A stretch of 37,451 nucleotides of DNA from Alphaproteobacteria bacterium (lineage in GTDB: Bacteria > Pseudomonadota > Alphaproteobacteria > UBA7887), in contig DASWHU010000042.1 in assembly GCA_036398035.1 (NCBI GenBank), forward strand, positions 1 through 37,451. The letters run 5' to 3'. A model generated the notes under the pieces. It was not told where the DNA came from. It ran no database searches and saw only the letters and a list, made by a program, of their open reading frames with translations. Shown one piece after another: positions 18,077 to 32,180 of the stretch. A program made the translations under genes and the position numbers. The stretch's first letter is position 1. Every line of letters begins with the position of its first letter.

Positions 18077-18083
18077 GCGCCTG

Positions 18084-19667
18084 GTGGGCGGCATGGCCGA
18101 GATCGTGACAGCGGGCGCAAGCGCGCGCCGGACCACCGTCGCGCTGGCGGCCCTGGTCGCCGTCGCGGCGGCGCTGCGCGCGTGGGGGCTCGAGCGGCAG
18201 TCGCTGTGGATCGACGAGGCTTACGCGTACTGGTTCAGCAGCCAGTCCCTGCACGATTTGTGGCAGGTCTTTCCCGCCCACCACAACCACCCGCCGCTGT
18301 TCATGACCATGATGAAGGGCTGGCGCTGGCTGCTCGGCGACGGCGAGGCGGCGATGCGCAGCCTGTCGGTGGTGCCGAGCGTGCTGACCGTGCCGGTGGT
18401 CTTCGTCATGGGCCGGCTCGCCGGCGGGGCCGCGCGCGGCGCGCAGACCGGGCTGCTCGCGGCGCTGGTCTTCGCGCTGTCGCCGTTGCACATCGACTAC
18501 GCGCAGCAGGCCTACGTCTACACCTGGTTCACCCTCGGCGCCGGCCTGTCGCTCGCCGGCGCATTCTGGCTGCTGGTTCATGCTCGCGCGGCGGAGCGCC
18601 CGTGGCTCGACCTGCGGCGGGACACGCACCGTGCCGGCGAGGCGCGGGCAACCGGCGCCTGGGCGGCGACGGTGATCGGCTCGGCGCTCGCGCTGTGGAT
18701 GCACAATGTCGCCGTCGTCTACGTCGCCGCGCTCGGCCTGTCGGCGGCCTGGATCGGCTGGCGCGACGGCAGGCCGCGCTGGTATTTCGCCAACCTCGTC
18801 CTGGCCGGGCTTGCCGTGCTGGCGGTCTGGTCGCCGTTCGCGGCCAAGTTCGCGGCCCAGGTCGGGGTCGTCTCGGGAAACTTCTGGGTCGAGGACGTCA
18901 CCCTCGCCTCGGCGCTGCAGTTCATCCCGTTCCTGTTCGAGATCCGCTTCACCTGGCCGATCAAGGGCTCGGTGCTGCTGGTCCTGCTCGCCGCGCTCGG
19001 CCTGTTCGCGATCTCGCGCTGGGGGCGGCGCGACCTGACCCGGCTGATGCTCGGCGTGGCCGGCCTCGCCTACGCGCTGCTGCTCCTGTACTCGCTGCTG
19101 GTGCAGTCGATCCTGGTCGACCGGCTGCTGATCTGGGTCAGCCTGCCGTTCTATGTCGCGGTGGCCGCGGGATTGGTCGCGATGCGCCGGCGCTGGCTGA
19201 GGGTGCTGCTGGTGGTCGCGATCGTCGCCCTCAGCCTGCAGGGCTACGTCAACTACCAGAGGGGATTCGAGCGCGAGCCGTGGCGCAACATCGCCGCTCA
19301 CCTCGCCGAGCATGCAGGCCCCGACGACGTGGTCGTGAACCTGCCCAACGACAACGTGATTCCGCTCGCTTACTATCTCGACGCCGGCGGTGGCTCGCTC
19401 AAGCTCGTCGGGCTGCCGGTGCCGTACCCCTCCTTCGATGAGAGCCGGTTGAGCCCGGTCGGCGTGATCTTCACCCCGGCGGTCGAGGCGGCGGACCTGG
19501 CGCGGCTCGACGAGGTGACCGAGGGGGCGGCGGCGGTGTGGTACGTCGCGCGCGAGACCCGCCTGTTCGACCCCGACCAGATCGTGCTCCACCATTTGCA
19601 GAAGACGCGCCGGCTCGCCTGGCATTGGCCGGTGCGCCAGCACATCGACGTCTACTGCTTCGAGTGA
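18084..19667 (+). CDS. GT-C membrane glycosyltransferase (GT39/GT83-like), paralogue of 16463-18076
   Basis: LWIDEAYAY...HPPLFM...GDGEAAMRSLSV and REPWRNIAAHL align by eye with the previous gene (REPWRDIAARI). GTG at 18084 or ATG at 18093 could be the start. Confidence 0.75.
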   Translation: MGGMAEIVTAGASARRTTVALAALVAVAAALRAWGLERQSLWIDEAYAYWFSSQSLHDLWQVFPAHHNHPPLFMTMMKGWRWLLGDGEAAMRSLSVVPSVLTVPVVFVMGRLAGGAARGAQTGLLAALVFALSPLHIDYAQQAYVYTWFTLGAGLSLAGAFWLLVHARAAERPWLDLRRDTHRAGEARATGAWAATVIGSALALWMHNVAVVYVAALGLSAAWIGWRDGRPRWYFANLVLAGLAVLAVWSPFAAKFAAQVGVVSGNFWVEDVTLASALQFIPFLFEIRFTWPIKGSVLLVLLAALGLFAISRWGRRDLTRLMLGVAGLAYALLLLYSLLVQSILVDRLLIWVSLPFYVAVAAGLVAMRRRWLRVLLVVAIVALSLQGYVNYQRGFEREPWRNIAAHLAEHAGPDDVVVNLPNDNVIPLAYYLDAGGGSLKLVGLPVPYPSFDESRLSPVGVIFTPAVEAADLARLDEVTEGAAAVWYVARETRLFDPDQIVLHHLQKTRRLAWHWPVRQHIDVYCFE

Positions 19668-21013
19668 GCCTCCGCCGCGAACCCGGCCTCCGGCACGTAG
19701 TAGGCGGACATCGCCGCCATGCGCACGGGACGCTCCTCGCCCGGGACCGGGTGGGTGTTGACGTACTCCCAGACGACCGTGCCGGAGGCGAGGTCGATCT
19801 CGACGATCTGGCCCTGGTCGGCGAGCGCAACCAGGGCGCGGCGGCCGTCCGGGTGCAGGTCGATATGCCCGGCGAACACCGTTGCGAACCGGCCCGCGCC
19901 GCTGCCGCCCGGCACCGGATAGACGGTGCGCACCGCATTCGTCGCCAGGTCGATCTCGACCAGGCGGCTCAGGTTCTCGGGGTCAAGCCCGCCCTTGTTG
20001 TCGAAGGCGAGGACTTTGTTCGCGCCACTGAATCGCGGGCTGTGCTGCGCCAGCGTCCGCCCGGCGAGCAGCCACTTGACCCGGCCCGAGGTGCCGTCGA
20101 GCACCGCCAGCGCGTTGCTGGTCCGCAGCGAAACCAACAGGTCGCCCGCGGCGAGGCCCGGATATTCGGACGCGAGCCGGGGGGAAAGCACGCGCACGTC
20201 GTTGAGGTGGGTCGGGTCGCACTGCTCGGAGGCGAGCGCCTCCGCGTGATGAAGCAGGCCCGGATAATCGGCCGCGAGCAGGGCCTTCAGGACCGGCAGC
20301 TCCCTGAGCAGCCGCCCGTCGGCGTCGAGCACCTTGATCTCGTCGTCGTAGACGAAGCCGGTCTCGCAGGTGATCTCGACGCCGCCGCCGAGCGCTACCG
20401 GCGCCGGCGCCAATCGTTGCGACGGCACATAAATGCGCCCCCCTTCGTCGAGCGAGAACCAGTGATGGCTGAGGTTCTGCTGCCGCCATAGCAGATTCCC
20501 GGCCTTGTCCAGCTTGGCAATGCCGATGGCGTAGGGGAATGCGCTCGAGCTCTGGTAGGAGACGAGCAGGTCGCCGTTCGCGAACAGGTGCAAGCCCATC
20601 GGCACCAGCCGGTCGAGCGGCCCGGCCCCGGCCTCGCGCGCGCGCTCGCCCCACAGCAGGTCGAGGTCGAGCGGCCAGGCGTGCACGACGCGCCCTTGCC
20701 GGTCGATGATCCAGGCGAGGCAGCCCTGCTCCGGGCACTCGCTCATGAGCTCGTAAGGGCCGCCCCCGACCAGGATCAGGTGATCGTTTTCGGTAGCATT
20801 TCCGTGTGCAATGACAGTTGGTTGTGAGTAGTCCTTATCATATCCCATGAACACAGTCGGCTGCCCGACGCCGAGCGCGGGAAGAAGCGCCCGGAGCGCC
20901 AGGCGGGCGTCCCGGAACTGCCGGTACGGGAACACCTCGAAGGTCGTGGTCGTGGCCGCGCCGGCGATGAAGGCGAGCGCGCACAGGCCGATCAGGAACA
21001 CCGCGCGCGCCAT
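19652..21013 (-). CDS. arylsulfotransferase (ASST)-like beta-propeller protein with N-terminal membrane anchor
   Basis: Start MARAVFLIGLCALAFIAGAA (ATG at 21013) is a signal-anchor. CDPTHLNDVRVL, GDLLVSLRTSNALAVLD, VLAFDNKGG and IVEIDLASGTVVWEY resemble ASST-family repeats. The Arg-rich extension to 21235 is rejected. Confidence 0.6.
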   Translation of the reverse strand: MARAVFLIGLCALAFIAGAATTTTFEVFPYRQFRDARLALRALLPALGVGQPTVFMGYDKDYSQPTVIAHGNATENDHLILVGGGPYELMSECPEQGCLAWIIDRQGRVVHAWPLDLDLLWGERAREAGAGPLDRLVPMGLHLFANGDLLVSYQSSSAFPYAIGIAKLDKAGNLLWRQQNLSHHWFSLDEGGRIYVPSQRLAPAPVALGGGVEITCETGFVYDDEIKVLDADGRLLRELPVLKALLAADYPGLLHHAEALASEQCDPTHLNDVRVLSPRLASEYPGLAAGDLLVSLRTSNALAVLDGTSGRVKWLLAGRTLAQHSPRFSGANKVLAFDNKGGLDPENLSRLVEIDLATNAVRTVYPVPGGSGAGRFATVFAGHIDLHPDGRRALVALADQGQIVEIDLASGTVVWEYVNTHPVPGEERPVRMAAMSAYYVPEAGFAAEAHSKQ

Positions 21014-21038
21014 CCGCCCTCGCTCGTTTCCGGCGGCG

Positions 21039-22145
21039 TCACACAGCGCGCGCGTCGCCGGCCGCGTGCGCGGCATCGGCGGCGTATCCGAGCCGCCGCG
21101 CGACCGCGTCCGTCGCCGCGGCGATCGCCTGCCGCTCGTGGTCCGAGAAGTCGGGCCGGTAATAGTCCGGGCGATGCAGCCGGCGGGCCTGGGCCTCGAC
21201 CAGTGCCGCGCCGGCCTCCAGCCGGCAATGCGCATACACCGCTCGCAGCGTCGTCTCGGGCCGGTCGCACAGGTCCTCGTAGCGGACGATCATGGTCGCC
21301 TCGGCCAGACCCGGGTGGGCGCCGATGCGGTCGAGGACGAAGCCGTACACCTGCGCCCATTGCAGCGCGTAGCCGGCGGCGTCCTCGCCCGCGGCCCACA
21401 GGCGGCGCACCTCGTCCGCCGCGCCGCGATCGCCGAGCTCGAGCGCGCGCCGGTCGAGCCCGAACTCGAAATGCCGCAGCCTCTGCATGTGCGCGAGGAT
21501 GCGCGCATCGCGCTGCTCCTCGCGGCAGAACAGGCGGTGCTGCTTGACCAGTGACGCGACATGGGCCTCGGGGTGGCGGACGGGGATGACGAAGCGCGCA
21601 TCGGGGAACAGCTCGTAGAGGTAGCCCAGCCGGGCGACGTGGTAGTTGTTCTTCGCCACGTACCGGCGGCCGCCGCGCACCAGCAGGATCTTGCGCAGGT
21701 GGTCGCGGTAGAAGCGGTCGAACGCGGCATCCCGGTCCGCGAAGCGTTGGTTCCAGAGCACCTCCTCGAACGCTTCCGGGCTTTCGGGCGTGACCAGCAG
21801 GCCGTCCTTGTGCGCCCGCTCGACGGGCTCCGCCGCGCGCCGCGGGACCAGCTCCAGGAACGCGTTCCACCACAGCGGCACCTGGATCGGCGGGACGTCG
21901 CGGTAGCTGTGGGTCGCCACCTCGGGATGCGCTGCCAGCACCTCCAAGAGGATCGTCGATCCGGCGCGCGCGAGCCCGGTCACGTAGATCGGGCCGACGA
22001 TGGGGATCGCCTCGAGCCGGGCCGCGTACCATCGGCTTTCCAGCGCCGCGAGACGCGTCAGGAGGCCGTGCGCGCGCTCGACGAGGGCGCCGAACCGGTG
22101 GCGGCTCGCCGACATCTCGATGGCGTTCGGTGGCGTTTCGGACAT
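21039..22145 (-). CDS. PAPS-type sulfotransferase family protein
   Basis: IYVTGLARAGSTILLEVL matches the 5'-PSB loop of Sulfotransfer_3-type proteins. No signal peptide. Lies 25 bp upstream of the ASST-like gene on the same strand. Confidence 0.7.
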   Translation of the reverse strand: MSETPPNAIEMSASRHRFGALVERAHGLLTRLAALESRWYAARLEAIPIVGPIYVTGLARAGSTILLEVLAAHPEVATHSYRDVPPIQVPLWWNAFLELVPRRAAEPVERAHKDGLLVTPESPEAFEEVLWNQRFADRDAAFDRFYRDHLRKILLVRGGRRYVAKNNYHVARLGYLYELFPDARFVIPVRHPEAHVASLVKQHRLFCREEQRDARILAHMQRLRHFEFGLDRRALELGDRGAADEVRRLWAAGEDAAGYALQWAQVYGFVLDRIGAHPGLAEATMIVRYEDLCDRPETTLRAVYAHCRLEAGAALVEAQARRLHRPDYYRPDFSDHERQAIAAATDAVARRLGYAADAAHAAGDARAV

Positions 22146-23554: not shown

Positions 23555-24343
23555 ATGATCCGCCGGCGCGAGCCCGCGTTCGGCACCTTCGTCGGCGAGT
23601 TCGACACCCCGGGCATGGGCCACATCCTCGCTGCCGCGGGCTGCGACTTCGCGTTCCTCGACATGGAGCATTCCGGGCTGACCTTGGCCTCGGTCAAGGG
23701 CGCGGTGCGCCATTACGAGGCCGCCGGCGTGGCGCTGATCGTGCGCCCGCCGTCGAAGGCCTACGACCACATCGCGCGGGTGCTCGACACCGGCGCCGAG
23801 GGGGTGTGCCTGCCCTGCGTCGGCAGCGCCGAGGAGGCGCGCGCGATCGTCGCTTCCGCCAAATACCCGCCCGCGGGCGAGCGCGGCATCGGCCTCCAGC
23901 TCGCCCACGACAACTACGTCCGCGGCGAGGTCGCCGCCAAGCTCGCCGCCGCCAACCGGCGGAGCTGCGTGGTGCTGCAGATCGAGTCGGCAGAAGGCGC
24001 CGAGAACGCCGACGCCATCGCCGCGGTGCCGGGGGTCGATGCGTTGTGGATCGGCCACTACGACCTCAGCGCCTCGCTCGGCATCGCCGGCCAGTTCGCG
24101 CATCCCGATTTCCTGGCCGCGGTGCGCCGCGCCATCGACGCCTGCAAGCGGCACCGGCGCGGGCTCGGCATGGTGGTCGGCTCGCCTGAGCAGGGCCTCG
24201 ACATGATCGGCGCCGGCTTCAACCTGATCGCCTATTCGGGCGACGTGTGGCTGTTGCGCGACGCGCTCAGCGCCGGTATCGATGCGATGCGCGACGGCGC
24301 CCGCGTGCGCCTGGGCGCGGAAACCGGCAGGGGCAAGGCATGA
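23555..24343 (+). CDS. HpcH/HpaI-family 2-keto-3-deoxy-acid aldolase
   Basis: FGTFV...AAAGCDFAFLDMEHSG...LIVRPP...VLQIESAEG...IGHYDLSASLG is typical of the family. ATG at 23555 is preferred. The stop overlaps an ATG (ATGA at 24340-24343). Confidence 0.88.
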   Translation: MIRRREPAFGTFVGEFDTPGMGHILAAAGCDFAFLDMEHSGLTLASVKGAVRHYEAAGVALIVRPPSKAYDHIARVLDTGAEGVCLPCVGSAEEARAIVASAKYPPAGERGIGLQLAHDNYVRGEVAAKLAAANRRSCVVLQIESAEGAENADAIAAVPGVDALWIGHYDLSASLGIAGQFAHPDFLAAVRRAIDACKRHRRGLGMVVGSPEQGLDMIGAGFNLIAYSGDVWLLRDALSAGIDAMRDGARVRLGAETGRGKA

Positions 24344-24372
24344 GCAAGTTCCGGGTCGCCATCTCGGGCGAC
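24249..24372 (+). repeat. left copy of the 124-bp direct repeat (aldolase 3' end plus first 33 nt of the dehydrogenase)
   Basis: Hand alignment with 31049-31172: identical except at 24267, 24269 and 24331. The offset is exactly 6800 bp. Confidence 0.95.
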
Positions 24373-24411
24373 TCCCTTGCGGTCGCGCTCCCCGGCGATC
24401 CCGTGAAATAG
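24340..24411 (+). pseudogene. orphan 5' fragment of the D-2-hydroxyacid dehydrogenase gene
   Basis: MSKFRVAISGD is identical to the start of the intact gene at 31140. It then diverges and stops after 23 codons. Confidence 0.8.
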
Positions 24412-24472
24412 GCGCCGGCCGCACGCGTCAGTCGCGACAATGATCGAGCGACCGCGTCACGGCGCCAGCGGT

Positions 24473-24709
24473 TCAGCGATCGATCCGCCGTCCGCTTCCA
24501 TCAGGCGCGCGGCCGCGATCGGGTGCATCGATGCACCAGGGCTCCATCGCCGTGCGCACCACGAGCATTACCCCGAACAGCTCCGGGTTGAAGATCTGGT
24601 TGGCCGCGGTGGACAGGATCCCCTGCTCGCAGTAGTGCGGCTTCGCGCCGTCTCCGGCGCAGGCGCAAAGGAGTGCTACCGACAGAGTGATCAAGACGCG
24701 ACAATTCAT
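24473..24709 (-). CDS. small predicted lipoprotein (78 aa)
   Basis: MNCRVLITLSVALLCAC has an atypical lipobox (LCAC). Two further Cys in the mature part. Weakest call of the five. Confidence 0.4.
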   Translation of the reverse strand: MNCRVLITLSVALLCACAGDGAKPHYCEQGILSTAANQIFNPELFGVMLVVRTAMEPWCIDAPDRGRAPDGSGRRIDR

Positions 24710-24790
24710 CGCCCGCGCGCTGCTGCACGACCGGTCCGCGACCTCGACCGGCGGGCCTGCGGCACACGCGCGCCGGACTCCCAAGGCGCG

Positions 24791-25129
24791 CTACCCGCAT
24801 ACATGATCCTCGACGTCCTGGGAGGCGAGGCCGATCAGGAATCCCATCGGCGCGAAAAACACCCCGGCGATTGCCATCAGGGGGTAGTTGGCAGGATTGC
24901 ATGCGAACACGTCGCCGTTCGCACACGCCTCGGCCATGTCGTCCATGGTCGCGAAGAAACCCATCGAGAACTCGGCCGCGGCCTCGACCCTTCCGCAGGA
25001 CTCCGCCTGTTGCGGGGAGTCGGCCGCAATGCTCGCGGTGTTAGGCTCTGTGCTGGCGCACCCCGAGACCATCAAAGCCGAGGCGAGAATTGAAAGGCCA
25101 AAGCGAGTCGTCGTGAAAAGCTGAATCAT
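24791..25129 (-). CDS. small predicted lipoprotein (112 aa) with C-terminal hydrophobic segment
   Basis: MIQLFTTTRFGLSILASALMVSGC has lipobox VSGC. GGAGGA lies upstream of ATG 25129. Four further Cys. The segment YPLMAIAGVFFAPMGFLIGLA is hydrophobic. Confidence 0.6.
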   Translation of the reverse strand: MIQLFTTTRFGLSILASALMVSGCASTEPNTASIAADSPQQAESCGRVEAAAEFSMGFFATMDDMAEACANGDVFACNPANYPLMAIAGVFFAPMGFLIGLASQDVEDHVCG

Positions 25130-25295
25130 GGCAGTCCTCCATTTCAACTTGGATCGCCGGGTTGCACTGCAATGCAGGACTCATCCAGCACATCGCGTTC
25201 TCCGCCGTCCTCCCCCATCTCATGCCGCACGCCGGCCGCGGCTACAAGCCATAGCGAAGAGACCATCGAACTGTCATCGTCAAGCCGGGTCGGTG

Positions 25296-25628
25296 TTATT
25301 CGCTGATGTCATGGCCTTTCTCGCGAAGACAGTCCTTGAACGTCTCCTCATAAGCCCGATCTTCCGCGGACGCCGCATACTCTAACGTGAGCCAGGCGCC
25401 GAGGCCGCCGGTCAGAATCGCAATCGTCTCTGCCTCGTCTGACATTTCGGCAACCCTGTCGAAGGCGGCTCTACGGGCTCGCGCTTGGCATTCGCTCTTG
25501 TGAACTTCAGAGATGTCTTCCGGGGGTGAATAGGAGAACCGCTCATCCCCGGCGGGCCGCGCAAAGGCGCAACCGCTCACGGCATAGGCAGTCAGAACAA
25601 CTGCAATGCCACAGCTAAGTCGCGTCAT
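25296..25628 (-). CDS. small predicted lipoprotein (110 aa)
   Basis: MTRLSCGIAVVLTAYAVSGC has lipobox VSGC. Two further Cys. The C-terminal AYEETFKDCLREKGH resembles a motif common in small proteobacterial lipoproteins. Confidence 0.6.
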   Translation of the reverse strand: MTRLSCGIAVVLTAYAVSGCAFARPAGDERFSYSPPEDISEVHKSECQARARRAAFDRVAEMSDEAETIAILTGGLGAWLTLEYAASAEDRAYEETFKDCLREKGHDISE

Positions 25629-25729
25629 GCCATGACCAACCGAGGAACGCAAGCGCAGCGCTCGGGGATGTCCCGCGCAGCCTGAACGCAACTGCTTGGG
25701 TTGACTCTCGTGACATTGCAACATGTTTG

Positions 25730-26206
25730 CTACATCCTTTTCCCGAGGACGACTTCTCCGGTATCCGCGTCCTCCATCCATACGAACGACGTGTACCCAG
25801 GGTGGGACCAACAGAAAATCGGAAAGCACGTGTCCTCCTCAACGTTGTAGGTTCGGCCCGCCAATAGGTTGACTTCACCAACTGCCAAGGCAGTGGTACT
25901 CTTTCGTCCCCTGTGTCGAAGGCTGATGTAGTATGTACCCGGCAGAAGCATAATCTTATTGGGGAAATCAAACGTGCTGGCCGCCCCGGACGGTGCCGAA
26001 TAAATTTTTTTGCTCTCGGAATTTATCCATGTCACGCAACTCCAGCACCCCGCACCCTGATCGATGATTGCGACCTCGTTCTCGGGGCGAGGTGTGCCGT
26101 CGTAGGCGCTCAACTCCGGGCCGGCGTGATTCCAGTACACTCCGCAACCCGACACGCACAGGGTCGCGAGGATAAGAACGCTCCTTGAAAGGGCCGAGCG
26201 AAGCAT
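25730..26206 (-). CDS. predicted lipoprotein (158 aa), possibly DUF2846/PEGA-like beta-sandwich
   Basis: MLRSALSRSVLILATLCVSGC has lipobox VSGC. LLPGTYYISL...LLAGRTYNVE pattern. Four further Cys. Confidence 0.65.
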   Translation of the reverse strand: MLRSALSRSVLILATLCVSGCGVYWNHAGPELSAYDGTPRPENEVAIIDQGAGCWSCVTWINSESKKIYSAPSGAASTFDFPNKIMLLPGTYYISLRHRGRKSTTALAVGEVNLLAGRTYNVEEDTCFPIFCWSHPGYTSFVWMEDADTGEVVLGKRM

Positions 26207-26312
26207 TATTCACCTCCTGACAGTCGCCGGGCCGTCGGCGCTCGAAGCGGCTTCGCGAGCGATGAGCGGCCGGCGATTAAGGCGATGGCCAAGGGCCTTG
26301 CGATCGAGCGGT

Positions 26313-27005
26313 TCACGGCTGCGCCCCACCATAAGGTCGGTCGCTGGTGCGCAATTCCGCCGCGATCTGGTCGTCGGCGATCACGGCGGACTGCTTCTGC
26401 TGCTCGAGCTCGGCGAGACTCCGGTCCGAGGCCGCCTTCAGGGCGGCCTTGTTGTCCTCGCAGTCGTTCCTGGTCTGGCGGCCAGCCGAGGCTTGCGCGC
26501 AGCTCCGGTCAAATTGCTCCTCGACGAGCCTGAACTTGGCTTCGATGTCCTCGGCGCGCGTGGCAAAGAACCGGTCGCGGGCCTCCGCGGTGGGGAAGCT
26601 CGCAGGATACAAGGCAAATCGAACCGTCTCCGGATACTCGCTCATCGAGCCCGAGGCCGCGTCGACGACGAGGCCGACTCCGCCGCCGAGGAGCCCGAAC
26701 AGAATGTTCCCCGCCGCCCAGCCGGAGGTGCCCGAGGCAACGGTCTGGCGGGTATCCAGGTAGCCGTCGCGGGTGCAGGCGATCTCAAGGCCATTGGCGC
26801 TCTTGCTGATCTGGATCGTGCCGGGCGTGCTGCTCACGGCGCCGACCATCGCTCCGTCGCGCGAGATCTCGCATTTGGCGCGGCCCGGGTCGGTGGCGAC
26901 CGTAAAGGGCTGCGTCGACCCTTTGACCACCGTCGCGCAGGCGTGCAGGAACGGGGCGGCAAGGATGACGAGCGCGACGGCGAGGACATTGGTTTGCCGG
27001 CTCAT
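26313..27005 (-). CDS. predicted lipoprotein (230 aa) with Gly-zipper and coiled-coil-like tail
   Basis: MSRQTNVLAVALVILAAPFLHAC has lipobox LHAC. GNILFGLLGGGVGLVVD is a glycine zipper. Four further Cys. The start overlaps the radical SAM stop (ATGA at 27002-27005). Confidence 0.7.
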   Translation of the reverse strand: MSRQTNVLAVALVILAAPFLHACATVVKGSTQPFTVATDPGRAKCEISRDGAMVGAVSSTPGTIQISKSANGLEIACTRDGYLDTRQTVASGTSGWAAGNILFGLLGGGVGLVVDAASGSMSEYPETVRFALYPASFPTAEARDRFFATRAEDIEAKFRLVEEQFDRSCAQASAGRQTRNDCEDNKAALKAASDRSLAELEQQKQSAVIADDQIAAELRTSDRPYGGAQP

Positions 27006-28567
27006 GATGTCGGCCTCCTGTTGTCGGACGGCCCGCAGGCCACACTGGGAATCCCGAAATGGCGCCGCTCGCTGCGCGCGTCCGGATCGACGTCGTCGGC
27101 CACGTCGTCATGCAGGGCGCCGTGCGCGTCGCTGACCATGGTCGGGCGGAAGTACGCCTCGAAGCGCGCCGGCAGGCGCATGAACGGCCGGTACAGCGGA
27201 TCGAGCTCCTCGGTGCTGGCGAGGTAGGTCCGGCGCGGGCGGCGCAGCCGCAGCCTGAGCGGCGAGGACGCGAACGTCTCGTTGCTGATCAACGCGCTCG
27301 TGACCATGGCGGCGAACAGCTGCAGCGGCGTCAGCCGGCGCCGATAGTGGCGGAGGAAACGGACCGCGTGTCTCAGCACGCGCGTGCGATAGCCGCGCAA
27401 GGACGGCAGGTCGCGGGCGAACCCTACCGCCTCCTCAAGCCGGTCGAGCGACCGCAGCGCCAAGGTCACTCCGTCGAGATCGCGCAACCTGACATGCGGC
27501 AGGAGCCGATGCTGAGCCAAGCAATCGTAAAAGTACGGCGTGCCGAGCAGAGGGATGGACAGGGTGAAGTACGCCGGCAGCGTGATCGTCGGCGTGTCCA
27601 GCAGCAGCCCGATCTCGGCCCTCAGCTTCTCGAGGCGGCGTACGCTTGGATCGAGCATGATGCCGTAGCTGAACAGCACGCCCGCCTCGAGGCAGGTTCG
27701 GATCATCTCCAGCTGGGGCACCACGGTGCTGTGGCGCTTGTTGTGGGCGCGCAGGGTCTCCGCGTCGAGGGACTCGACGCCGCTGAACAGCGACTGGCAT
27801 CCCGCCTCGCGCACCAGATCGAGGTTCTCGCGGCGGGCGAAGAAGTCGCCCGTGACCAGCGCCGACCAGCCGTCGATCCGTCCGCTGCGATAGAAGTCGC
27901 GAAGCAGGGCGACGCGGTCGAGGAAGAACCTGCGGTCGTTGCCATAGAAATTGTTGTCGATCAGGACGATCTGCTTTTTGCCTACCGCCTCGATCTGGCG
28001 CTTCAGGTAGTCGATCTCGTAGTGCCGGTAACGGCCGCCTTCGCCCGTGAGCGAGCAGAAGCCGCAGCGGAAGTTGCAGTTGCGGCTCGACTCGACGTAA
28101 GCGACCAGGCGGTGCGGGTCGGCGAGATCGAAGCGGGGGAACATCTCCTCGGCGACGTGGGCGGGGCCGAGCGCATCGCGCGCCACCTCCTGAAGGGCCT
28201 CGATGTCGCCGGTGCACGGATAGTCGAAGAAGCGCGCCGCCCGCCGGGGCAGGGCGCGGATCGCCGGCCCGCCGGCGGCGACGATCACGCGCGGATTGAG
28301 TGTCCGGGCGTAAGCGGCCAGATGCAGCATCCGGTCGAACGACGAGGTCACGCCCGTGAGCACCAGCAGATCGGGCGAGCCGAGTAGGGCGGCGTCGTGG
28401 AGCGGGCCGCTGTATTGCTCGTTGTAGAGACGGACCTCAGTGGTCGAGCGCTCGAACGCGCCCGCCAGGAAGACGTGTCCCATCGCGCGCGGCACGCGGT
28501 GCGGGCTGCCGGCCGTCCGCCGGTACTCGTCGAAGAAGGCGTTGACCACCAGAACGCGCTTGCCCAT
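27002..28567 (-). CDS. B12-binding-domain radical SAM protein (class B)
   Basis: The N-terminus VLVVNAFFDE...LLVLTGVTSSF...VIVAAGGP is B12-binding-domain-like. SSRNCNFRCGFC is the CX3CX2C cluster motif. SLFSGVES. Long C-terminal extension. 521 aa, no signal peptide. Confidence 0.88.
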   Translation of the reverse strand: MGKRVLVVNAFFDEYRRTAGSPHRVPRAMGHVFLAGAFERSTTEVRLYNEQYSGPLHDAALLGSPDLLVLTGVTSSFDRMLHLAAYARTLNPRVIVAAGGPAIRALPRRAARFFDYPCTGDIEALQEVARDALGPAHVAEEMFPRFDLADPHRLVAYVESSRNCNFRCGFCSLTGEGGRYRHYEIDYLKRQIEAVGKKQIVLIDNNFYGNDRRFFLDRVALLRDFYRSGRIDGWSALVTGDFFARRENLDLVREAGCQSLFSGVESLDAETLRAHNKRHSTVVPQLEMIRTCLEAGVLFSYGIMLDPSVRRLEKLRAEIGLLLDTPTITLPAYFTLSIPLLGTPYFYDCLAQHRLLPHVRLRDLDGVTLALRSLDRLEEAVGFARDLPSLRGYRTRVLRHAVRFLRHYRRRLTPLQLFAAMVTSALISNETFASSPLRLRLRRPRRTYLASTEELDPLYRPFMRLPARFEAYFRPTMVSDAHGALHDDVADDVDPDARSERRHFGIPSVACGPSDNRRPTS

Positions 28568-28681
28568 CGCACCTCACCCCAGTTCGCGCGTCGCCCATGC
28601 CCGGCCGGCGCCACTTGCCACGTGCGGAGAGTCTTCCCGGGCGCCGTCATGGTGGCGTACGCTGGCGCCGCCGCACGGCGT

Positions 28682-28715
28682 CAAATCCTCGTCAGGGCGG
28701 CGCAAATCCGGGTCA
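28682..28715. promoter_or_regulatory. candidate regulator-binding direct repeats in the divergent promoter region
   Basis: caaatcctcgtca (28682-28694) and caaatccgggtca (28703-28715). 11 of 13 positions identical, start-to-start spacing 21 bp (two helical turns). Confidence 0.35.
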
Positions 28716-28817
28716 CCGCCGCGCAGCGTCGGCACTCGCGGGCCGAGAAACCCCGTTTGCCCAAGCCCCGCCCGGGGGTAAGCTTGAGCGCCGTCGCCGA
28801 AGGGCGCGAGACAAGGG

Positions 28818-30971
28818 GTGGCGAATCACGTGGCGATAGCGGGCGTTTCCGTACGGCTGCTCGGCAGGCTCGAGGTCCGTTCATGCGAGGGGGCCGAGAT
28901 CCCCGTGCCCGGTCGAATGGCCCAGGCGTTTCTCGGTTACCTCGCCGCGCATTCGGAGCTGGCTGAGGGCCGCGAGACCCTTGCCGGCTTGTTCTGGGGC
29001 GACCGCTTTCGTGACCAGGCGCGCCACAGCCTGCGCCAGACCGTGCTGGTGTTGCGCAAGGCTTTCGAGGATGCGGGAGCGCAGGCGCTGGCGGCCGACG
29101 CCCATAGCGTCGCGCTCGACCCCGCAGTCGTCACGGTCGACGTGCAGCGTTTTCGGGCGCTCGCTGCCAGCGAGCAACGCGCCGACCTCGACGAGGCCTG
29201 CGCCCTCTATCGCGGTGAACTCTTGGCCGACGTGTCAGTGCGAGCGGACGGCTTCACCACTTGGCTCGACCGCGAGCGCGAGCAGCTGCGACAGCTGGCC
29301 GCGGACGCGTTCATGCGCCTCGCCCGGCTCGAGGCCGCGGAAGGCGCCCACGATGCCGCCATTGCCGCCGCCACTAGGGCGCTCGCGATCGAGCCGGCAC
29401 TTGAGGACTGTCATCGCGAGCTGATGCGCCTCTACCGGCTTCAGGGCAACCGATCGGCGGCTTTGCGCCAGTACCAGGCATGCGTCGAGGCGTTGCGGCG
29501 CGAGCTCGATGTCGACCCTGACCCGGCCACGGTCCGTCTGGCCGACGAGATCCGGGCCGCCAGGGACACGCCGCCGCCGACCGCGACCGGCGGGTCGACG
29601 CAGCCCGCCCAGCCGTCGCAGTGGCGCACTTGGCTGCCGTCGCGCCGTTGGCGGCGGCTGTCGCCCTACCTCGCCGGCGGCCTGCTGCTGCTGCTCGGCG
29701 CGATCGGCGGAGTGGCGCTACTGACCGGCGTCGAGCGCGTGCGCGAGGAGGCGCGCCAGGAGCGGATGCTTTTCCCGCTGCCGGCGCAGCCCTCGATCGT
29801 GGTCTTGCCGTTCAAGAACCTGAACCGCGACCCGGCCTATCAGGTGATGGTCGACGGCATGACCGAAGAGATCACCGCCGCGCTGTCGATGGTCTCGGAG
29901 ATGTTCGTGATCGCGCGCACCACCGCTCTCACCTACCGCGACCGGGCGGTCGACGTGCGCGAGGTGGCCGAGGAGCTCGGCATCCGCTACGTGCTCGACG
30001 GTGCAGTTCAGGTCGAGGAGGACCGCTTGCGCGTGCTGGTCGAGCTGGTCGACGCGATCGAGAACCGCCAGGTGTGGACGCACCGCTACGAGCGTGAGAT
30101 GACCAGCCTGTTCGAGATCAACGACGACATTACCCTCGAGGTGGTCACCGGCCTTCAGGTCCAGATTACCGAGGGCGAGCAGGACCGGATCTCCTTGGTG
30201 CACGGCACCGACAACCTGCAAGCCTGGCTGGTCGCCGGGCGCGCCCTCCAGCACCTTAGGCGCCTGACGCGCGAGGACAACGCGCGCGCCCGCGGCCTGT
30301 ATAGGCAGGCGATCGCCCTCGACCCGTCCTATCCCGGCGCCTACGACGGGCTGTCCTGGACCTATTTCATCGACGCCCGCTTCGGCTGGACGGAACGGCC
30401 CGACGAGGCCATTCGCCAGGCCGGCGAGCTCGCTCAGCGCACGCTCGAGCTGGACCCGGAGCGGCCGGCGACTTACGCCCTGCTGGGGGGCGTCCAGCTG
30501 ATGCTCGGCAACCACGACCAGGCGGTGGCGCTGGCCGAGAAGGCGGTCGAACTCAGCCCGAGCGGCGCCGACGTGACCGCGATCCTCGCCTTGATCCTGA
30601 CCTATGTCGGCGACTACCGGCGCAGCGTCGCGCTGTTTCAACGCGCGATGCGGCTCAGCCCCTCCTATCCCGACTGGTATCGCTGGTCGTTGGGGCGGGC
30701 CTATCGGCTGCTCGGGCGCCATCGCGATGCCGAGGCCACGCTCGCTTTCGAGGCGACGGAAGCCGGCGGCTCGATCGCGCCGCTGGTCGAGCTCGCCGCG
30801 ACCTATGCCGAGTTCGGCAAGATGCGCGAGGCGCGCCAGGTCGCCCGGCGGGTGGCGGCGGTGGCGCCCGGCTTTTCGGCGACCGCCTGGACGCGCATGC
30901 CGCCGCACCGCGACCAGGCGACCGCCGCCGCCGAACGCGCCGCCCTGATTCGCGCCGGACTTCCCGAGTAG
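28818..30971 (+). CDS. membrane-spanning SARP/BTAD-family transcriptional regulator with periplasmic TolB-N-like and TPR domains
   Basis: N-terminal wHTH plus BTAD (VRLLGRLEV..., LFWGD...ARHSLRQTVLVLRKA, VDVQRF, ...CHRELMRLYRLQGNRSAALRQYQ). One TM (LAGGLLLLLGAIGGVALLTGV). SIVVLPFKNLNRDP...DGMTEEITAALS module. C-terminal TPR-like repeats. Confidence 0.8.
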   Translation: MANHVAIAGVSVRLLGRLEVRSCEGAEIPVPGRMAQAFLGYLAAHSELAEGRETLAGLFWGDRFRDQARHSLRQTVLVLRKAFEDAGAQALAADAHSVALDPAVVTVDVQRFRALAASEQRADLDEACALYRGELLADVSVRADGFTTWLDREREQLRQLAADAFMRLARLEAAEGAHDAAIAAATRALAIEPALEDCHRELMRLYRLQGNRSAALRQYQACVEALRRELDVDPDPATVRLADEIRAARDTPPPTATGGSTQPAQPSQWRTWLPSRRWRRLSPYLAGGLLLLLGAIGGVALLTGVERVREEARQERMLFPLPAQPSIVVLPFKNLNRDPAYQVMVDGMTEEITAALSMVSEMFVIARTTALTYRDRAVDVREVAEELGIRYVLDGAVQVEEDRLRVLVELVDAIENRQVWTHRYEREMTSLFEINDDITLEVVTGLQVQITEGEQDRISLVHGTDNLQAWLVAGRALQHLRRLTREDNARARGLYRQAIALDPSYPGAYDGLSWTYFIDARFGWTERPDEAIRQAGELAQRTLELDPERPATYALLGGVQLMLGNHDQAVALAEKAVELSPSGADVTAILALILTYVGDYRRSVALFQRAMRLSPSYPDWYRWSLGRAYRLLGRHRDAEATLAFEATEAGGSIAPLVELAATYAEFGKMREARQVARRVAAVAPGFSATAWTRMPPHRDQATAAAERAALIRAGLPE

Positions 30972-31048
30972 TCCTAGCAGGCCGGGGGCTTGGCGATCCC
31001 ATCGCCCTTCGAGACGCCGCCACACGAATCGTCACATGCACGGTGCTC

Positions 31049-31143
31049 GGCTGTTGCGCGACGCGCCCGGCGCCGGTATCGATGCGATGCGCGACGGCGC
31101 CCGCGTGCGCCTGGGCGCGGAAACCGGCAGAGGCAAGGCATGA
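31049..31143 (+). pseudogene. orphan 3' fragment of the HpcH aldolase gene
   Basis: In-frame translation LLRDAPGAGIDAMRDGARVRLGAETGRGKA* equals the aldolase C-terminus apart from 2 residues. No upstream coding continuity. Confidence 0.8.
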
Positions 31144-31172
31144 GCAAGTTCCGGGTCGCCATCTCGGGCGAC
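31049..31172 (+). repeat. right copy of the 124-bp direct repeat
   Basis: See the left copy. This copy provides the start of the intact dehydrogenase gene. Confidence 0.95.
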
Positions 31173-32180
31173 CTTCTCAAGGACGACGGCACTCCGGCGA
31201 TCCCCGAGTTCGACCTGTCCCGGCTCGAGCGCGAGGCCGACGTCGAGTATGCCTACGTGGGGCGTGGCCCGGTGCTCGATGCGGGCGAGCTCGAGGACTT
31301 CGACGCCCTGATCCTGATGATGCCGCGCTTCGCGCCGGCTAGCGTGCCTAAGAGCGGCCGCCTGGCGGTGGTCGCGCGCGGCGGCGTCGGCTACGACACG
31401 GTCGACGTCGCCGCCTGCACCGAGGCCGGGATCGCGCTGGTCATCACGCCCGATGCGGTGCGCCGGCCGGTGGCGGTGATGGTGATCACCTTCATGCTGG
31501 CGCTGTCCGGGCACCTGTTCGCGCTCGACCGCATCACCCGCAAGGGGCCGTGGCGGGCGCGCACCGACTACATGGGGGTGGGGCTGATCGGGCGCACCTT
31601 CGGCCAGATCGGCATCGGCAACATCGGCGCCGAGACCTTGCGGCTGGCGAGGCCGTTCGGGCTCGAGCTGATCGCCCACGACCCGTATGTCGACCCGTCC
31701 ATCGCCAAGGACCTCGGCGTCAGGCTGGTCGATATGGAGACCGTGTTCCGCGACAGCGACTTCCTGTCGGTGAGCTGCCCGCTCAACGACGAGACCCGCG
31801 GCCTGGTCAACGCCCGGCGGCTCGCGCTGATGAAGCCAACCGCGTTCCTGATCAACACCTCGCGCGGGCCGGTGGTCGACCAGAGGGCGCTGACCGACGC
31901 GCTCAGGCGGCGGGCGATCGCCGGCGCCGGGCTCGACGTGCTGGAGAAGGAGCCGCCGGACCCCGCCGACCCGATCCTCACCCTCGACAACGTCATCGTC
32001 ACCCCGCACGCGCTGTGCTGGACCGACCAGATGTTCGCGACCATGGCGGAGAAGGACATCGACGCCTGCCTCGCCGTGATGCGCGGGCGGGCGCCGCAGA
32101 ACGTGGTCAACAAGGCGGTGCTGGATTCGCCGCGTTTTACCGACAAACTCACGGCCTACCGGAACGCATTCGGCAAGTAG
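31140..32180 (+). CDS. D-isomer-specific 2-hydroxyacid dehydrogenase family protein
   Basis: GQIGIGNIGAE (GxGxxG), INTSRGPVVDQRAL, GAGLDVLEKEP and TPHA motifs. ATG at 31140 corresponds to the coupled start seen at 24340. The ORF-track start at 30990 is rejected. Confidence 0.88.
   Translation: MSKFRVAISGDLLKDDGTPAIPEFDLSRLEREADVEYAYVGRGPVLDAGELEDFDALILMMPRFAPASVPKSGRLAVVARGGVGYDTVDVAACTEAGIALVITPDAVRRPVAVMVITFMLALSGHLFALDRITRKGPWRARTDYMGVGLIGRTFGQIGIGNIGAETLRLARPFGLELIAHDPYVDPSIAKDLGVRLVDMETVFRDSDFLSVSCPLNDETRGLVNARRLALMKPTAFLINTSRGPVVDQRALTDALRRRAIAGAGLDVLEKEPPDPADPILTLDNVIVTPHALCWTDQMFATMAEKDIDACLAVMRGRAPQNVVNKAVLDSPRFTDKLTAYRNAFGK

What the first reader, a model, noticed from the sequence alone, without database searches (positions are those of the whole stretch)
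24473..28567. Orphan module: B12-binding radical SAM enzyme heading a string of five cysteine-paired lipoprotein genes
The 521-aa protein (27002-28567, minus strand) has a cobalamin-binding-type N-terminal domain and a CNFRCGFC (CX3CX2C) cluster, with no signal peptide. Its stop overlaps (ATGA) the start of a 230-aa lipoprotein gene. Four more same-strand ORFs follow (158, 110, 112 and 78 aa). All five open with a signal peptide ending in a lipobox (LHAC, VSGC, VSGC, VSGC, LCAC). Beyond the lipidated Cys, every predicted mature protein has an even number of cysteines (4, 4, 2, 4, 2), which suggests disulfide-bonded periplasmic proteins. None of the usual partners of class B radical SAM enzymes is present. 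There is no RiPP precursor, peptidase or ABC exporter, and no hopanoid, bacteriochlorophyll, phosphonate or antibiotic genes. I cannot assign the module to a described system. Two hypotheses, both inference: the enzyme modifies an envelope lipid or lipoprotein component before export; or the set is an accessory envelope-remodelling or protection module switched by the adjacent membrane regulator.
Basis: partly seen in the sequence, partly recalled or inferred. Interest (0 to 1): 0.8.

Follow-up and report, generated by a model that had tools for sequence, protein, structure and literature searches.

The report
Radical SAM islet with lipoprotein cargo
A 6.8-kb inserted DNA islet carries a widespread but uncharacterised radical SAM enzyme with its own membrane-bound regulator, and the five small lipoprotein genes behind it are add-ons found only in this species, not partners in a conserved system.

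Summary

The proposed "rSAM plus lipoprotein module" is not a conserved unit.
- None of 84 loci around rSAM relatives (81 distinct; 39-69% identity) holds a homologue of any of the five lipoproteins.
- None of 34 loci of the Lp230 family holds the rSAM.

What is conserved is the rSAM plus a neighbouring signal-transduction protein. In the window this is the divergent SARP-transmembrane-TPR regulator. A tandem TGACG repeat with an 11-nt period, resembling a SARP box, lies in the intergenic region and is conserved in seven related loci.

Regulator, rSAM and lipoproteins together form a 6.8-kb low-GC insertion flanked by 124-nt direct repeats. It splits an aldolase-dehydrogenase pair that is contiguous in relatives.

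Three lipoprotein genes are well supported (Lp230, Lp158, Lp112). Two are weak (Lp110, Lp78).

The rSAM chemistry is unknown, and the family matches no curated subfamily. Overall this is a useful lead on an uncharacterised enzyme family, not a new system.

The parts
24249..24372 (.). Left copy of the 124-nt direct repeat. It covers the last 95 nt of the aldolase gene plus the first 30 nt of the dehydrogenase ORF.
   Evidence: the repeat finder D1: 98% identity, 6800-nt spacing. Alignment. Both copies are present in every strain contig that spans them.
24473..24709 (-). Lp78: 78-aa putative lipoprotein (LLCAC) with 2 mature Cys. Weakly supported gene.
   Evidence: ORF. Called by public annotations as 78 or 73 aa. 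GC3 0.78. No Shine-Dalgarno site. No homologue in any fetched locus. Identical in six strain contigs.
24791..25129 (-). Lp112: 112-aa lipoprotein (MVSGC) with 4 mature Cys.
   Evidence: GGAGG Shine-Dalgarno site. One homologue at 64% identity on a 2.2-kb contig. GC3 0.79.
25296..25628 (-). Lp110: 110-aa ORF with an AVSGC lipobox and 2 mature Cys. Doubtful as annotated.
   Evidence: GC1 0.62 versus GC3 0.63, so no frame signal. No Shine-Dalgarno site. Only one source aa; others call the last 49 codons.
25730..26206 (-). Lp158: 158-aa lipoprotein (CVSGC) with 4 mature Cys, all-beta. Member of a small family that is not in Pfam.
   Evidence: 68 representative clusters at E<=1e-3. The lipobox Cys is invariant in the 22 aligned sequences, and the CxxC and C...C pairs are largely conserved. 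AlphaFold2 pLDDT 90.9; no PDB fold match (best E 0.18). AGGAGG Shine-Dalgarno site. GC3 0.68.
26313..27005 (-). Lp230: 230-aa lipoprotein. It has an N-terminal beta-rich domain with a Cys pair, a conserved GNILFGLLGG..G..VD.ASG glycine-rich segment, and a helical tail with a second Cys pair. Its start overlaps the rSAM stop.
   Evidence: ATGA overlap and AGGAGG. Homologues carry LGAC or LGGC lipoboxes; the first Cys pair is invariant in them. 34 genome loci, none with the rSAM. GC3 0.86.
27002..28567 (-). Radical SAM enzyme, 521 aa, with class-B-like architecture: a Rossmann B12-type N-domain, a CX3CX2C barrel, and a conserved C-terminal domain of about 200 aa. It belongs to an uncharacterised family.
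   Evidence: Pfam. NCBIfam: best hit 50.8 bits against a cut-off of 600. 879 homologues; beyond its own cluster the best are 58-69% identical. Alignment A2. Model and Foldseek search.
28676..28725 (-). Tandem TGAC(G)-containing repeats with a period of about 10.5 nt, read toward the rSAM gene. Putative SARP operator and -35 region.
   Evidence: Direct repeat at 28682-28702 and 28703-28723. TTTGACGC-N5-TGACG occurs once, on the rSAM strand, in each of L003, L006, L010, L011, L081, L118 and L119. Two TGACG blocks 11 nt apart are invariant in the 8-sequence alignment.
28818..30971 (+). Membrane-anchored one-component regulator. It has a SARP module (winged helix plus BTAD, residues about 13-252), one transmembrane helix (about 284-306), and a C-terminal sensor of about 400 aa with TPR repeats, inferred to be periplasmic.
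   Evidence: BTAD E 1.7e-25 plus TPR families. Colinear match to EmbR 2fez over residues 13-252. A single hydropathy peak. Weak matches to CadC and HilA. Orthologues lie next to rSAM orthologues.
31049..31172 (.). Right copy of the 124-nt direct repeat, continuous with the intact dehydrogenase gene (31140-32180).
   Evidence: Aldolase and dehydrogenase are contiguous in L085, L087, L090 and L106.

Best explanation
The region is a 6.8-kb genomic islet (24373-31048 plus one repeat copy). It is inserted between an HpcH-type aldolase gene and a 2-hydroxyacid dehydrogenase gene that originally overlapped.

Core of the islet: a two-gene unit that is conserved in other Alphaproteobacteria.
- A ToxR/CadC-like SARP regulator. 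Its DNA-binding domain is cytoplasmic, it has one membrane helix, and its TPR sensor is periplasmic.
- A divergently transcribed radical SAM (rSAM) enzyme with a B12-type domain.

Proposed mechanism (inferred):
- The regulator senses an envelope or periplasmic cue.
- It binds the tandem TGACG repeats upstream of the rSAM gene and activates that promoter.
- In this species the transcript probably runs on into five lipoprotein genes. The first is translationally coupled to the rSAM through the ATGA overlap.

The lipoproteins are lineage-specific passengers of mixed origin. They are unrelated to each other, and four of them have much lower GC3 than the rSAM. They are not substrates or partners in a conserved system.

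Shown: the anatomy, the insertion, the conserved regulator-rSAM pairing, the repeat motif, and the lack of any rSAM-lipoprotein co-occurrence elsewhere.
Inferred: regulator binding, co-transcription, periplasmic topology, and any chemistry of the rSAM.
For: Islet:
- 124-nt direct repeats at 98% identity.
- GC 58-67% inside the islet against 70-74% in most of the window.
- Aldolase and dehydrogenase are contiguous in the nearest relatives.
- The same structure is present in six strain-level contigs from different samples.

Conserved core:
- BTAD-TPR regulators lie next to the rSAM in L006, L010, L011, L013, L081, L118 and L119, and close by in others.
- Across phyla, 39 of 81 loci hold a signalling protein near the rSAM. 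In 38 of these 39 it lies within 3 kb, although the flanks extend 8 kb, and in 23 within 400 bp.
- 0 of 23 control loci hold such a protein.

Operator: TTTGACGC-N5-TGACG occurs once per locus, on the rSAM strand. The window copy is at 28678-28723.

Passengers:
- 0 of 84 rSAM loci hold a homologue of any lipoprotein.
- 0 of 34 Lp230-family loci hold the rSAM or any other of the lipoproteins.
- One Lp230 homologue sits beside unrelated genes.
- The five are not paralogues.
- GC3 is 0.63-0.79 for four of them, against 0.86-0.90 for Lp230, the rSAM and the regulator.

Coupling: ATGA overlap plus AGGAGG. No terminator-like site lies on the minus strand of the string.
Against: - No expression data exist. 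Gaps of 81-166 nt between the lipoprotein genes could hold their own promoters.
- The islet has no integrase or transposase, so how it inserted is unexplained.
- In L003 the same repeat sits upstream of a CapA/MFS/methyltransferase operon, not the rSAM. The regulator's target is therefore not fixed.
- One close rSAM relative (P0003, 69% identity) has no neighbouring regulator.
- The window's repeat differs from the consensus: two of its four units are degenerate.
- Absence of lipoprotein homologues was tested with tblastn at E<=1e-3, so very divergent analogues would be missed. In four loci a different lipoprotein (TatT) follows the rSAM directly.
Confidence: 0.6

Rival explanations
1. The radical SAM (rSAM) enzyme and the five lipoproteins form one functional system. 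The enzyme modifies a lipid or a lipoprotein component in the cytoplasm, and that component is then used or carried by the exported, disulfide-bonded lipoproteins.
For: - Same strand, with an ATGA overlap and a strong Shine-Dalgarno site for the first lipoprotein.
- The whole set is inherited together in six strain contigs.
- In four other lineages a lipoprotein gene (TatT) also follows the rSAM directly.
- Lipid and acyl-CoA genes lie near the rSAM in Acidobacteriota.
Against: - No homologue of any of the five lies in 84 rSAM loci.
- The rSAM is absent from 34 Lp230-family loci.
- The closest rSAM relatives are followed by unrelated genes.
- Four of the five have a different base composition from the rSAM.
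- Putative lipobox ORFs are not clearly enriched downstream of rSAM relatives.
Confidence: 0.12
2. Unrelated neighbours. The lipoprotein genes have their own promoters and have nothing to do with the rSAM or its regulator. They would be a small array of horizontally acquired envelope proteins, for example orphan immunity or inhibitor proteins against periplasm-acting toxins, that landed in the same islet.
For: - Low and varied GC3.
- Families that are sparse or have no detected relatives.
- Lp158 relatives occur in tandem with other lipoprotein genes on other contigs.
- Intergenic gaps of 81-166 nt.
Against: - Lp230 overlaps the rSAM stop codon and has rSAM-like GC3.
- No sigma-70-like promoter or terminator was detected in the string, though this is a weak test.
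- No similarity to any PADLOC family or any solved fold supports an immunity role.
Confidence: 0.2
3. RiPP-like system. The B12-type rSAM modifies one of the small ORF products, or an unannotated peptide, as a precursor.
For: - Weak NCBIfam similarity to RiPP C-methyltransferases.
- One relative (L118) lies near a LanB-like dehydratase fragment.
Against: - The candidates carry Sec/lipoprotein signal peptides rather than leader peptides.
- No conserved small ORF flanks the rSAM across the family.
- No peptidase or exporter is present.
- The family is very conserved (about 50% identity across phyla), unlike typical tailoring enzymes.
Confidence: 0.03

Closest known systems
Class B (cobalamin-dependent) radical SAM enzymes and their B12-domain relatives: OxsB, TokK, CysS, MgmA, and AprD4, which lacks cobalamin
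   Same: - N-terminal Rossmann B12-type domain, followed by a CX3CX2C partial TIM barrel and a C-terminal domain.
- Foldseek E 6e-13 to 1e-8, with alignments of about 400-570 columns.
- Pfam Radical_SAM plus a weak B12-binding match.
   Different: - Sequence identity is only 12-17%.
- Every curated subfamily model scores far below its cut-off: PhpK 50.8 against 600, HpnR 33.8 against 650, ladderane 26.6 against 360, HpnJ 18.8 against 577, BchE 20.9 against 481.
- The best structural match, AprD4, has a B12-like domain that does not bind cobalamin (my own knowledge of the AprD4 literature). Cobalamin use by this enzyme is therefore open.
- The substrate is unknown.
SARP regulators (EmbR, AfsR, ActII-ORF4) and ToxR/CadC-type membrane-bound one-component regulators
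   Same: - Winged helix plus BTAD, colinear with EmbR.
- Tandem short direct repeats with an 11-nt period next to the target gene, as is typical of SARP boxes (established knowledge).
- A single transmembrane helix with an extracytoplasmic sensor, as in CadC and ToxR.
   Different: - Classical SARPs are cytoplasmic actinobacterial regulators of antibiotic gene clusters. This one is alphaproteobacterial and membrane-anchored.
- Its sensor is a large TPR domain.
- It is paired with a single enzyme gene.
TPR-protein-associated TRAP transporters (TatT lipoprotein with DctP and DctQM)
   Same: - In 13 rSAM loci a TatT TPR lipoprotein (PF16811, E 7e-74) and TRAP components lie nearby.
- In four of these loci TatT directly follows the rSAM. 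That echoes the 'rSAM then lipoprotein' layout in the window.
   Different: - None of the window's lipoproteins is related to TatT.
- The window has no TRAP genes.
Small integrase-less genomic islets flanked by direct repeats
   Same: - Flanking 124-nt repeats, deviating composition, and an uninterrupted site in relatives.
   Different: - There is no integrase, transposase or tRNA target.
- The repeat is a duplicated gene junction. This fits a single crossover with a circular DNA better than transposition.

Membership tests
Radical SAM superfamily | CX3CX2C motif that binds the [4Fe-4S] cluster, set in a partial TIM barrel | tested here: met
   PF04055 E 1.2e-14. C164, C168 and C171 are invariant in 40 orthologues. 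The barrel in the model matches rSAM structures.
Class B cobalamin-dependent radical SAM enzymes | N-terminal cobalamin-binding Rossmann domain | tested here: inconclusive
   PF02310 scores 27.6 bits, below the 32.1 cut-off. The fold is present, but the best match is AprD4, whose domain binds no cobalamin; OxsB, TokK and CysS, which do, come next.
Class B cobalamin-dependent radical SAM enzymes | Bound cobalamin and cobalamin-dependent chemistry | not testable with these tools
   This needs UV-visible spectroscopy or mass spectrometry of purified protein, plus activity assays.
Known lipid-modifying B12-type rSAMs (HpnP/HpnR, HpnJ, ladderane rSAM, BchE) | Score above the curated NCBIfam cut-off for the family | tested here: not met
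   HpnR 33.8 against 650, HpnJ 18.8 against 577, rSAM_ladder_B12 26.6 against 360, BchE 20.9 against 481. HpnP did not appear among the matches.
RiPP maturase radical SAM systems | An adjacent precursor peptide gene, usually with a peptidase or exporter | tested here: not met
   No small ORF of 18-80 aa is conserved beside the rSAM beyond closely related genomes. No peptidase or ABC gene lies in the islet.
Bacterial lipoproteins (Lgt/LspA substrates) | Signal peptide ending in a lipobox, with Cys at position 15-35 | tested here: met
   Lp158, Lp110 and Lp112 carry VSGC, and Lp78 carries LCAC; all four pass the pattern scan. Lp230's LHAC fails strict patterns, but its homologues have LGAC or LGGC at the aligned Cys. 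SignalP and LipoP were not available.
Bacterial lipoproteins (Lgt/LspA substrates) | Evidence that each ORF is a real gene | tested here: inconclusive
   Good for Lp230, Lp158 and Lp112: homologues and Shine-Dalgarno sites. Weak for Lp110 and Lp78.
SARP-type regulators | OmpR-like winged helix followed by a BTAD domain | tested here: met
   BTAD E 1.7e-25. Residues 13-252 align colinearly with EmbR residues 14-259.
SARP-type regulators | Tandem direct repeats with an 11-nt period at the target promoter | tested here: met
   Actual binding was not tested.
   0 of 84 rSAM loci and 0 of 34 Lp230-family loci. Three close rSAM relatives show other downstream genes.
Genomic island | Flanking repeats, deviating composition, and an empty site in relatives | tested here: met
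Genomic island | An integrase or other mobility gene | tested here: not met
   Pfam hits inside 24373-31048 are limited to the rSAM and the regulator; the lipoprotein ORFs have none.
Anti-phage defence systems (PADLOC) | A match to any PADLOC model | tested here: not met
   No hit for the rSAM, the regulator or the five lipoproteins.

The most novel reading that the evidence does not exclude
The radical SAM (rSAM) family may be the enzymatic half of an undescribed two-component unit that recurs across at least five phyla. Its partner is a signal-transduction protein of one of two kinds:
- A membrane-anchored SARP, OmpR-type regulator or Ser/Thr kinase with a periplasmic TPR sensor.
- A cytoplasmic kinase or cyclase fused to an AAA_16 STAND module.

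The family also recurs near TatT-TRAP transporters, Amidohydro_2 proteins and acyl-lipid genes. On this reading the enzyme would make or modify a hydrophobic or envelope-derived small molecule that these sensors and transporters handle. In Acidobacteriota it could bear on lipid pathways that are still unassigned; the enzyme that makes iso-diabolic acid in aerobic Acidobacteria is still unknown (PMC13159169).
Probability: 0.2. Interest if true: 0.65.

Novelty: new member of a known kind. Interest (0 to 1): 0.33.

Why it matters
- The eye-catching feature, an rSAM heading five cysteine-paired lipoproteins, is an accident of one lineage. It should not be pursued as a new envelope-modification system.
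- What remains useful is a large, highly conserved radical SAM family with no assigned function: 879 detected homologues and about 50% identity across phyla.
- This family keeps the same kind of neighbour, a signalling protein, in many lineages. In Alphaproteobacteria it also has a recognisable operator.
- Orthologues with a cyclase-STAND partner sit on chromids of culturable Ensifer adhaerens, Microvirga and Sinorhizobium. The function is therefore directly testable by genetics.

Tried and rejected
- PADLOC scan of the islet proteins and two partner proteins. Nothing for the islet; only generic kinase and cyclase hits for the partners.
- Sequence search of the rSAM against PDB. Only marginal RimO hits.
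- Rfam scan for a cobalamin or other riboswitch upstream of the rSAM. Only a distant tRNA-Leu was found.
- Promoter and terminator consensus scan. Uninformative.
- dN/dS from six strain contigs. Too few substitutions (0-8 per lipoprotein gene) to judge selection.
- Paralogy among the lipoproteins. Only a marginal Lp110-Lp112 match that starts within the signal peptides.
- Search for a conserved precursor peptide. None.
- Similarity between the regulator's TPR sensor and TatT. None.
- Fold search of the confident Lp158 model. No match.
- Pfam scan of the Lp158 family. No family.
- Genome scan with Lp158. No relative retrieved. Contexts of its metagenomic relatives lie on contigs too short to exclude an rSAM.
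- Conserved neighbours of the Lp230 family. None.
- Literature searches for this rSAM family with TPR, STAND, TatT or BTAD partners. Nothing relevant.
- Mss or Tes identity was considered. The weak GDGT-MAS fold match (E about 1e-3) and the published statement that Acidobacteria lack mss give no support for it.
- Annotated plasmid record for Ensifer. No features were held, so I analysed the DNA directly.

Full report
OBSERVATION

The 521-aa protein (27002-28567) matches Pfam Radical_SAM at E 1.2e-14. Its match to B12-binding is weaker: 27.6 bits, below the gathering score of 32.1. The three cysteines of CNFRCGFC (C164, C168, C171) are invariant in an alignment of 40 orthologues. An AlphaFold2 model built from that alignment is confident (pLDDT 85.8, pTM 0.87). 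Its best matches among solved structures are radical SAM (rSAM) enzymes with a B12-type domain: AprD4, OxsB, MgmA, CysS and TokK. These score E 6e-13 to 1e-8 at only 12-17% identity. The protein has no hydrophobic segment.

The rSAM stop codon and the start of the 230-aa gene overlap as ATGA. An AGGAGG lies 8 nt upstream of that start. The five downstream ORFs begin with signal-peptide-like N-termini that end in LHAC, VSGC, VSGC, VSGC and LCAC. After the lipidated Cys they contain 4, 4, 2, 4 and 2 cysteines.

ARE THE FIVE SMALL ORFS GENES?

Three are well supported.
- Lp230 has homologues with canonical LGAC or LGGC lipoboxes at the aligned cysteine. The first Cys pair is invariant in them, and they share a GNILFGLLGG..G..VD.ASG segment. 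An alignment-based scan found 34 further loci, mostly in Alphaproteobacteria.
- Lp158 belongs to a family of 68 representative clusters in an exhaustive HMMER search. In the 22 sequences I aligned, the lipobox Cys is invariant and the CxxC and C...C pairs are largely conserved. Its model is confident (pLDDT 90.9, all-beta) but matches no solved fold. The family is not in Pfam.
- Lp112 has one homologue at 64% identity.
- All three have good Shine-Dalgarno sites.

Two are weak.
- Lp110 shows no frame-specific GC3 signal (GC1 0.62, GC3 0.63) and has no Shine-Dalgarno site. Only one source annotates it as 110 aa; others call just its last 49 codons.
- Lp78 has no Shine-Dalgarno site.
- Neither has a homologue in any locus I fetched.

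All five ORFs are intact in six strain-level contigs. These contigs carry too few substitutions to measure selection. The five proteins are not paralogues of one another.

THE REGION IS AN INSERTED ISLET

A 124-nt direct repeat at 98% identity lies at 24249-24372 and 31049-31172. It consists of the last 95 nt of the HpcH aldolase gene plus the first 30 nt of the 2-hydroxyacid dehydrogenase gene. In each copy the ATG of the dehydrogenase ORF overlaps the aldolase-type stop as ATGA.

The 6.8 kb between the repeats holds exactly three things: the five lipoprotein ORFs, the rSAM and the regulator. GC content there is 58-67%, against 70-74% in most of the window.

In the nearest available relative (L085), and in three more distant genomes, the aldolase gene is followed directly by the dehydrogenase gene. 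Six contigs from other samples, 99.2-99.7% identical to the window, carry the same islet; each contig that spans a repeat position carries that repeat.

No integrase or transposase lies inside the islet.

Codon composition suggests a mosaic. GC3 is 0.86-0.90 for Lp230, the rSAM and the regulator, 0.63-0.79 for the other four ORFs, and 0.92-0.95 for the flanking genes.

IS "rSAM PLUS LIPOPROTEIN STRING" A CONSERVED MODULE?

No.
- The rSAM family is large: 879 homologues at E<=1e-5. Beyond the window's own cluster, the best listed hits are 58-69% identical.
- I fetched 80 genome loci with 8-kb flanks, spanning Alphaproteobacteria, Acidobacteriota, Gemmatimonadota, Planctomycetota, Desulfobacterota and Leptospirales. 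I also fetched four near-identical places from metagenomes.
- tblastn with the five lipoproteins found nothing in any of these 84 loci.
- Three of the closest relatives (68-69% identity) are followed by unrelated genes: an RrnaAD-like methyltransferase, a SnoaL-like protein, or small unknown ORFs.
- Putative lipobox ORFs are not clearly enriched downstream of the rSAM (0.045 versus 0.033 per kb).
- The reciprocal test agrees. None of the 34 Lp230-family loci holds the rSAM or any of the other lipoproteins within 6 kb, and that family has no conserved neighbour at all. One metagenomic Lp230 homologue lies beside glyoxalase, glutaredoxin and BolA genes.
- One genome (CAXXKO01) has the rSAM on one contig and three Lp230-like genes on other contigs.
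- Relatives of Lp158 occur on short contigs in tandem with other lipoprotein genes.

WHAT IS CONSERVED WITH THE rSAM?

I clustered all ORFs from the 81 distinct loci. The dominant neighbour is a signalling protein, present in 39 loci. It lies within 400 bp of the rSAM in 23 of them and within 3 kb in 38, although the flanks reach 8 kb. Control loci fetched with the dehydrogenase had none (0 of 23). That control is weak, because its taxonomic mix differs.

Two kinds of partner occur.
- Membrane-anchored proteins that share the window regulator's C-terminal TPR sensor. Their N-terminal output differs: SARP/BTAD in Alphaproteobacteria, OmpR-type Trans_reg_C in Acidobacteriaceae, and Ser/Thr kinase in Pyrinomonadaceae.
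- Large cytoplasmic kinase-AAA_16 or cyclase-AAA_16 STAND proteins. These are often encoded immediately upstream on the same strand, for example in Microvirga, Bosea, Roseovarius and Gemmatimonadota.

Ten rhizobial chromids carry a relative at 45-47% identity: eight from Ensifer (seven of them E. adhaerens), one from Microvirga lotononidis and one from Sinorhizobium chiapasense. I checked the layout in one of them, Ensifer adhaerens pCasidaAA. There the order is an Amidohydro_2-like gene, a cyclase-AAA_16 protein, then the rSAM.

Less frequent neighbours are these:
- A TatT TPR lipoprotein with DctP and DctQM TRAP components, in 13 loci. TatT directly follows the rSAM in L002, L019, L024 and L062.
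- Amidohydro_2, in 10 loci.
- An AMP-binding enzyme (13 loci), enoyl-CoA hydratase (8), fatty-acid desaturase (4), and BcrAD_BadFG/DUF2229 proteins (7). All of these lie within Acidobacteriota or Leptospirales, where shared ancestry cannot be separated from functional linkage.

THE REGULATOR AND ITS LIKELY OPERATOR

The window's regulator (28818-30971) has three parts.
- A SARP module. BTAD scores E 1.7e-25, and residues 13-252 align colinearly with EmbR.
- A single hydrophobic helix at about residues 284-306.
- A C-terminal region of about 400 aa with TPR repeats, which gives weak matches to CadC and HilA.

I therefore read it as a ToxR/CadC-like membrane-bound one-component regulator with a periplasmic sensor. 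The topology is inferred.

The 250-nt gap between the regulator and the rSAM contains a tandem repeat. Comparison with orthologous gaps shows TTTGACGC-N5-TGACG. This pattern occurs exactly once, on the rSAM strand, in each of L003, L006, L010, L011, L081, L118 and L119. In the 8-sequence alignment, two TGACG blocks 11 nt apart are invariant.

An 11-nt period of short direct repeats next to the -35 region is the classical layout of a SARP box (established knowledge). Binding itself was not tested.

In L003 the box precedes a CapA/MFS/methyltransferase operon instead of the rSAM, so the regulator's target can differ between genomes.

HOW IT MOST LIKELY WORKS

- An envelope cue acts on the periplasmic TPR sensor.
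- The SARP domain then binds the repeats and activates the rSAM promoter.
- In this lineage the transcript continues into Lp230, which is translationally coupled, and probably into the four further ORFs. No terminator-like site lies on that strand.

The chemistry of the enzyme cannot be assigned. Every curated subfamily model scores far below its cut-off: PhpK, HpnR, HpnJ, the ladderane rSAM, BchE and the RiPP methylases. No precursor peptide is conserved beside the gene. No riboswitch is present. PADLOC finds nothing.

Cobalamin use is also open. The best structural match, AprD4, has a B12-like domain that does not bind the cofactor (my own knowledge of that literature).

COMPARISON WITH WHAT IS KNOWN, AND NOVELTY

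The enzyme is a new, uncharacterised member of the rSAM enzymes that carry a B12-type domain. The regulator is an unusual membrane-anchored SARP. The lipoproteins belong to sparse families of unknown function, or have no detected relatives.

A recent review of lipid-modifying rSAM enzymes lists Tes, Mss, Gms, GrsA/B, Gmm, Cds, HpnH/J/P/R, Jaw5 and the ladderane enzymes (PMC13459092). The models available for these families do not match this protein. The paper that identified Mss notes that aerobic Acidobacteria lack mss and must use another route to iso-diabolic acid (PMC13159169). The presence of this family in Acidobacteriota near acyl-lipid genes is compatible with a lipid role. That is only a lead.

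I found no paper linking this family to TPR, STAND, TatT or BTAD partners.

VERDICT

The proposed rSAM-lipoprotein system is not supported, but the link to the adjacent regulator is. The lasting value is a tractable lead on an unassigned, widely conserved rSAM family that travels with signalling proteins. Interest is modest.

Noticed in passing
window 24249-24372 and 31049-31172: A 124-nt direct repeat (98% identity) brackets regulator, rSAM and lipoproteins. It duplicates the aldolase/dehydrogenase gene junction. No integrase lies inside, so the insertion mechanism is unexplained.
   Followed up: yes
window 28676-28725; L003 12949-12966; L006 6197-6214; L010 2683-2700; L011 5301-5318; L081 7905-7922; L118 4203-4220; L119 5720-5737: A conserved tandem TTGACG-type repeat with an 11-nt period lies next to the SARP regulator gene. 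It is oriented toward the rSAM, except in L003, where it precedes a CapA/MFS/methyltransferase operon.
   Followed up: yes
L043, L050, L056, L079, L048, L059, L020, L017, L057; L154 (Ensifer adhaerens pCasidaAA 1565071-1584507): rSAM orthologues lie immediately beside, and on the same strand as, kinase-AAA_16 or cyclase-AAA_16 STAND proteins of 1100-1400 aa. In Rhizobiales an Amidohydro_2 gene is also adjacent. These hosts are culturable.
   Followed up: partly
L002 9505-10452; L019 3740-4669; L062 9649-13455; also L008, L024, L027, L035, L039-L041, L044, L045, L055: A TatT TPR lipoprotein with DctP and DctQM TRAP transporter genes recurs near the rSAM in 13 loci from four phyla. In four of them TatT starts 12-167 nt after the rSAM stop.
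   Followed up: partly
L012 1695-4534: A second, different radical SAM protein (514 aa) and an MFS transporter lie directly upstream of the family rSAM on the same strand.
   Followed up: no
L118 2-2053: A LanB-type lantibiotic dehydratase N-terminal domain protein sits next to the BTAD regulator-rSAM pair in one close relative. A small methyltransferase lies downstream of that rSAM.
   Followed up: no
L035, L040, L055 and relatives, 3-6 kb downstream of the rSAM: BcrAD_BadFG double-ATPase and DUF2229 proteins lie downstream on the same strand in seven Acidobacteriaceae loci. I recall this domain set from plasmalogen/ether-lipid synthases such as PlsA and Ger; I did not test that resemblance.
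   Followed up: no
window 25296-25628: Lp110 has equal GC1 and GC3 and no Shine-Dalgarno site. Annotation pipelines disagree on its start (110 aa versus 49 aa). It may be a decaying or mis-called gene.
   Followed up: partly
rSAM residues C118, C257, C292, C349 (window 27002-28567): Four cysteines outside the CX3CX2C motif are nearly invariant in 40 orthologues. They might bind an auxiliary Fe-S cluster. I could not inspect the model coordinates to check.
   Followed up: no
window 14699-22145: Upstream of the islet lies a cluster of envelope and glycan genes: a PMT_2-type glycosyltransferase, two unassigned proteins of about 530-580 aa, an arylsulfotransferase-like protein and a Sulfotransfer_3 protein. 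It may be a sulfated-glycan or glycolipid locus.
   Followed up: no
window 35120-35206: A tRNA-Leu(TAA) gene lies about 4 kb from the islet. It is not at either islet boundary.
   Followed up: no
L117 2-1004: Two Lp158-family genes lie in tandem and are followed by another lipoprotein-like ORF. This family tends to sit in small lipoprotein arrays.
   Followed up: partly
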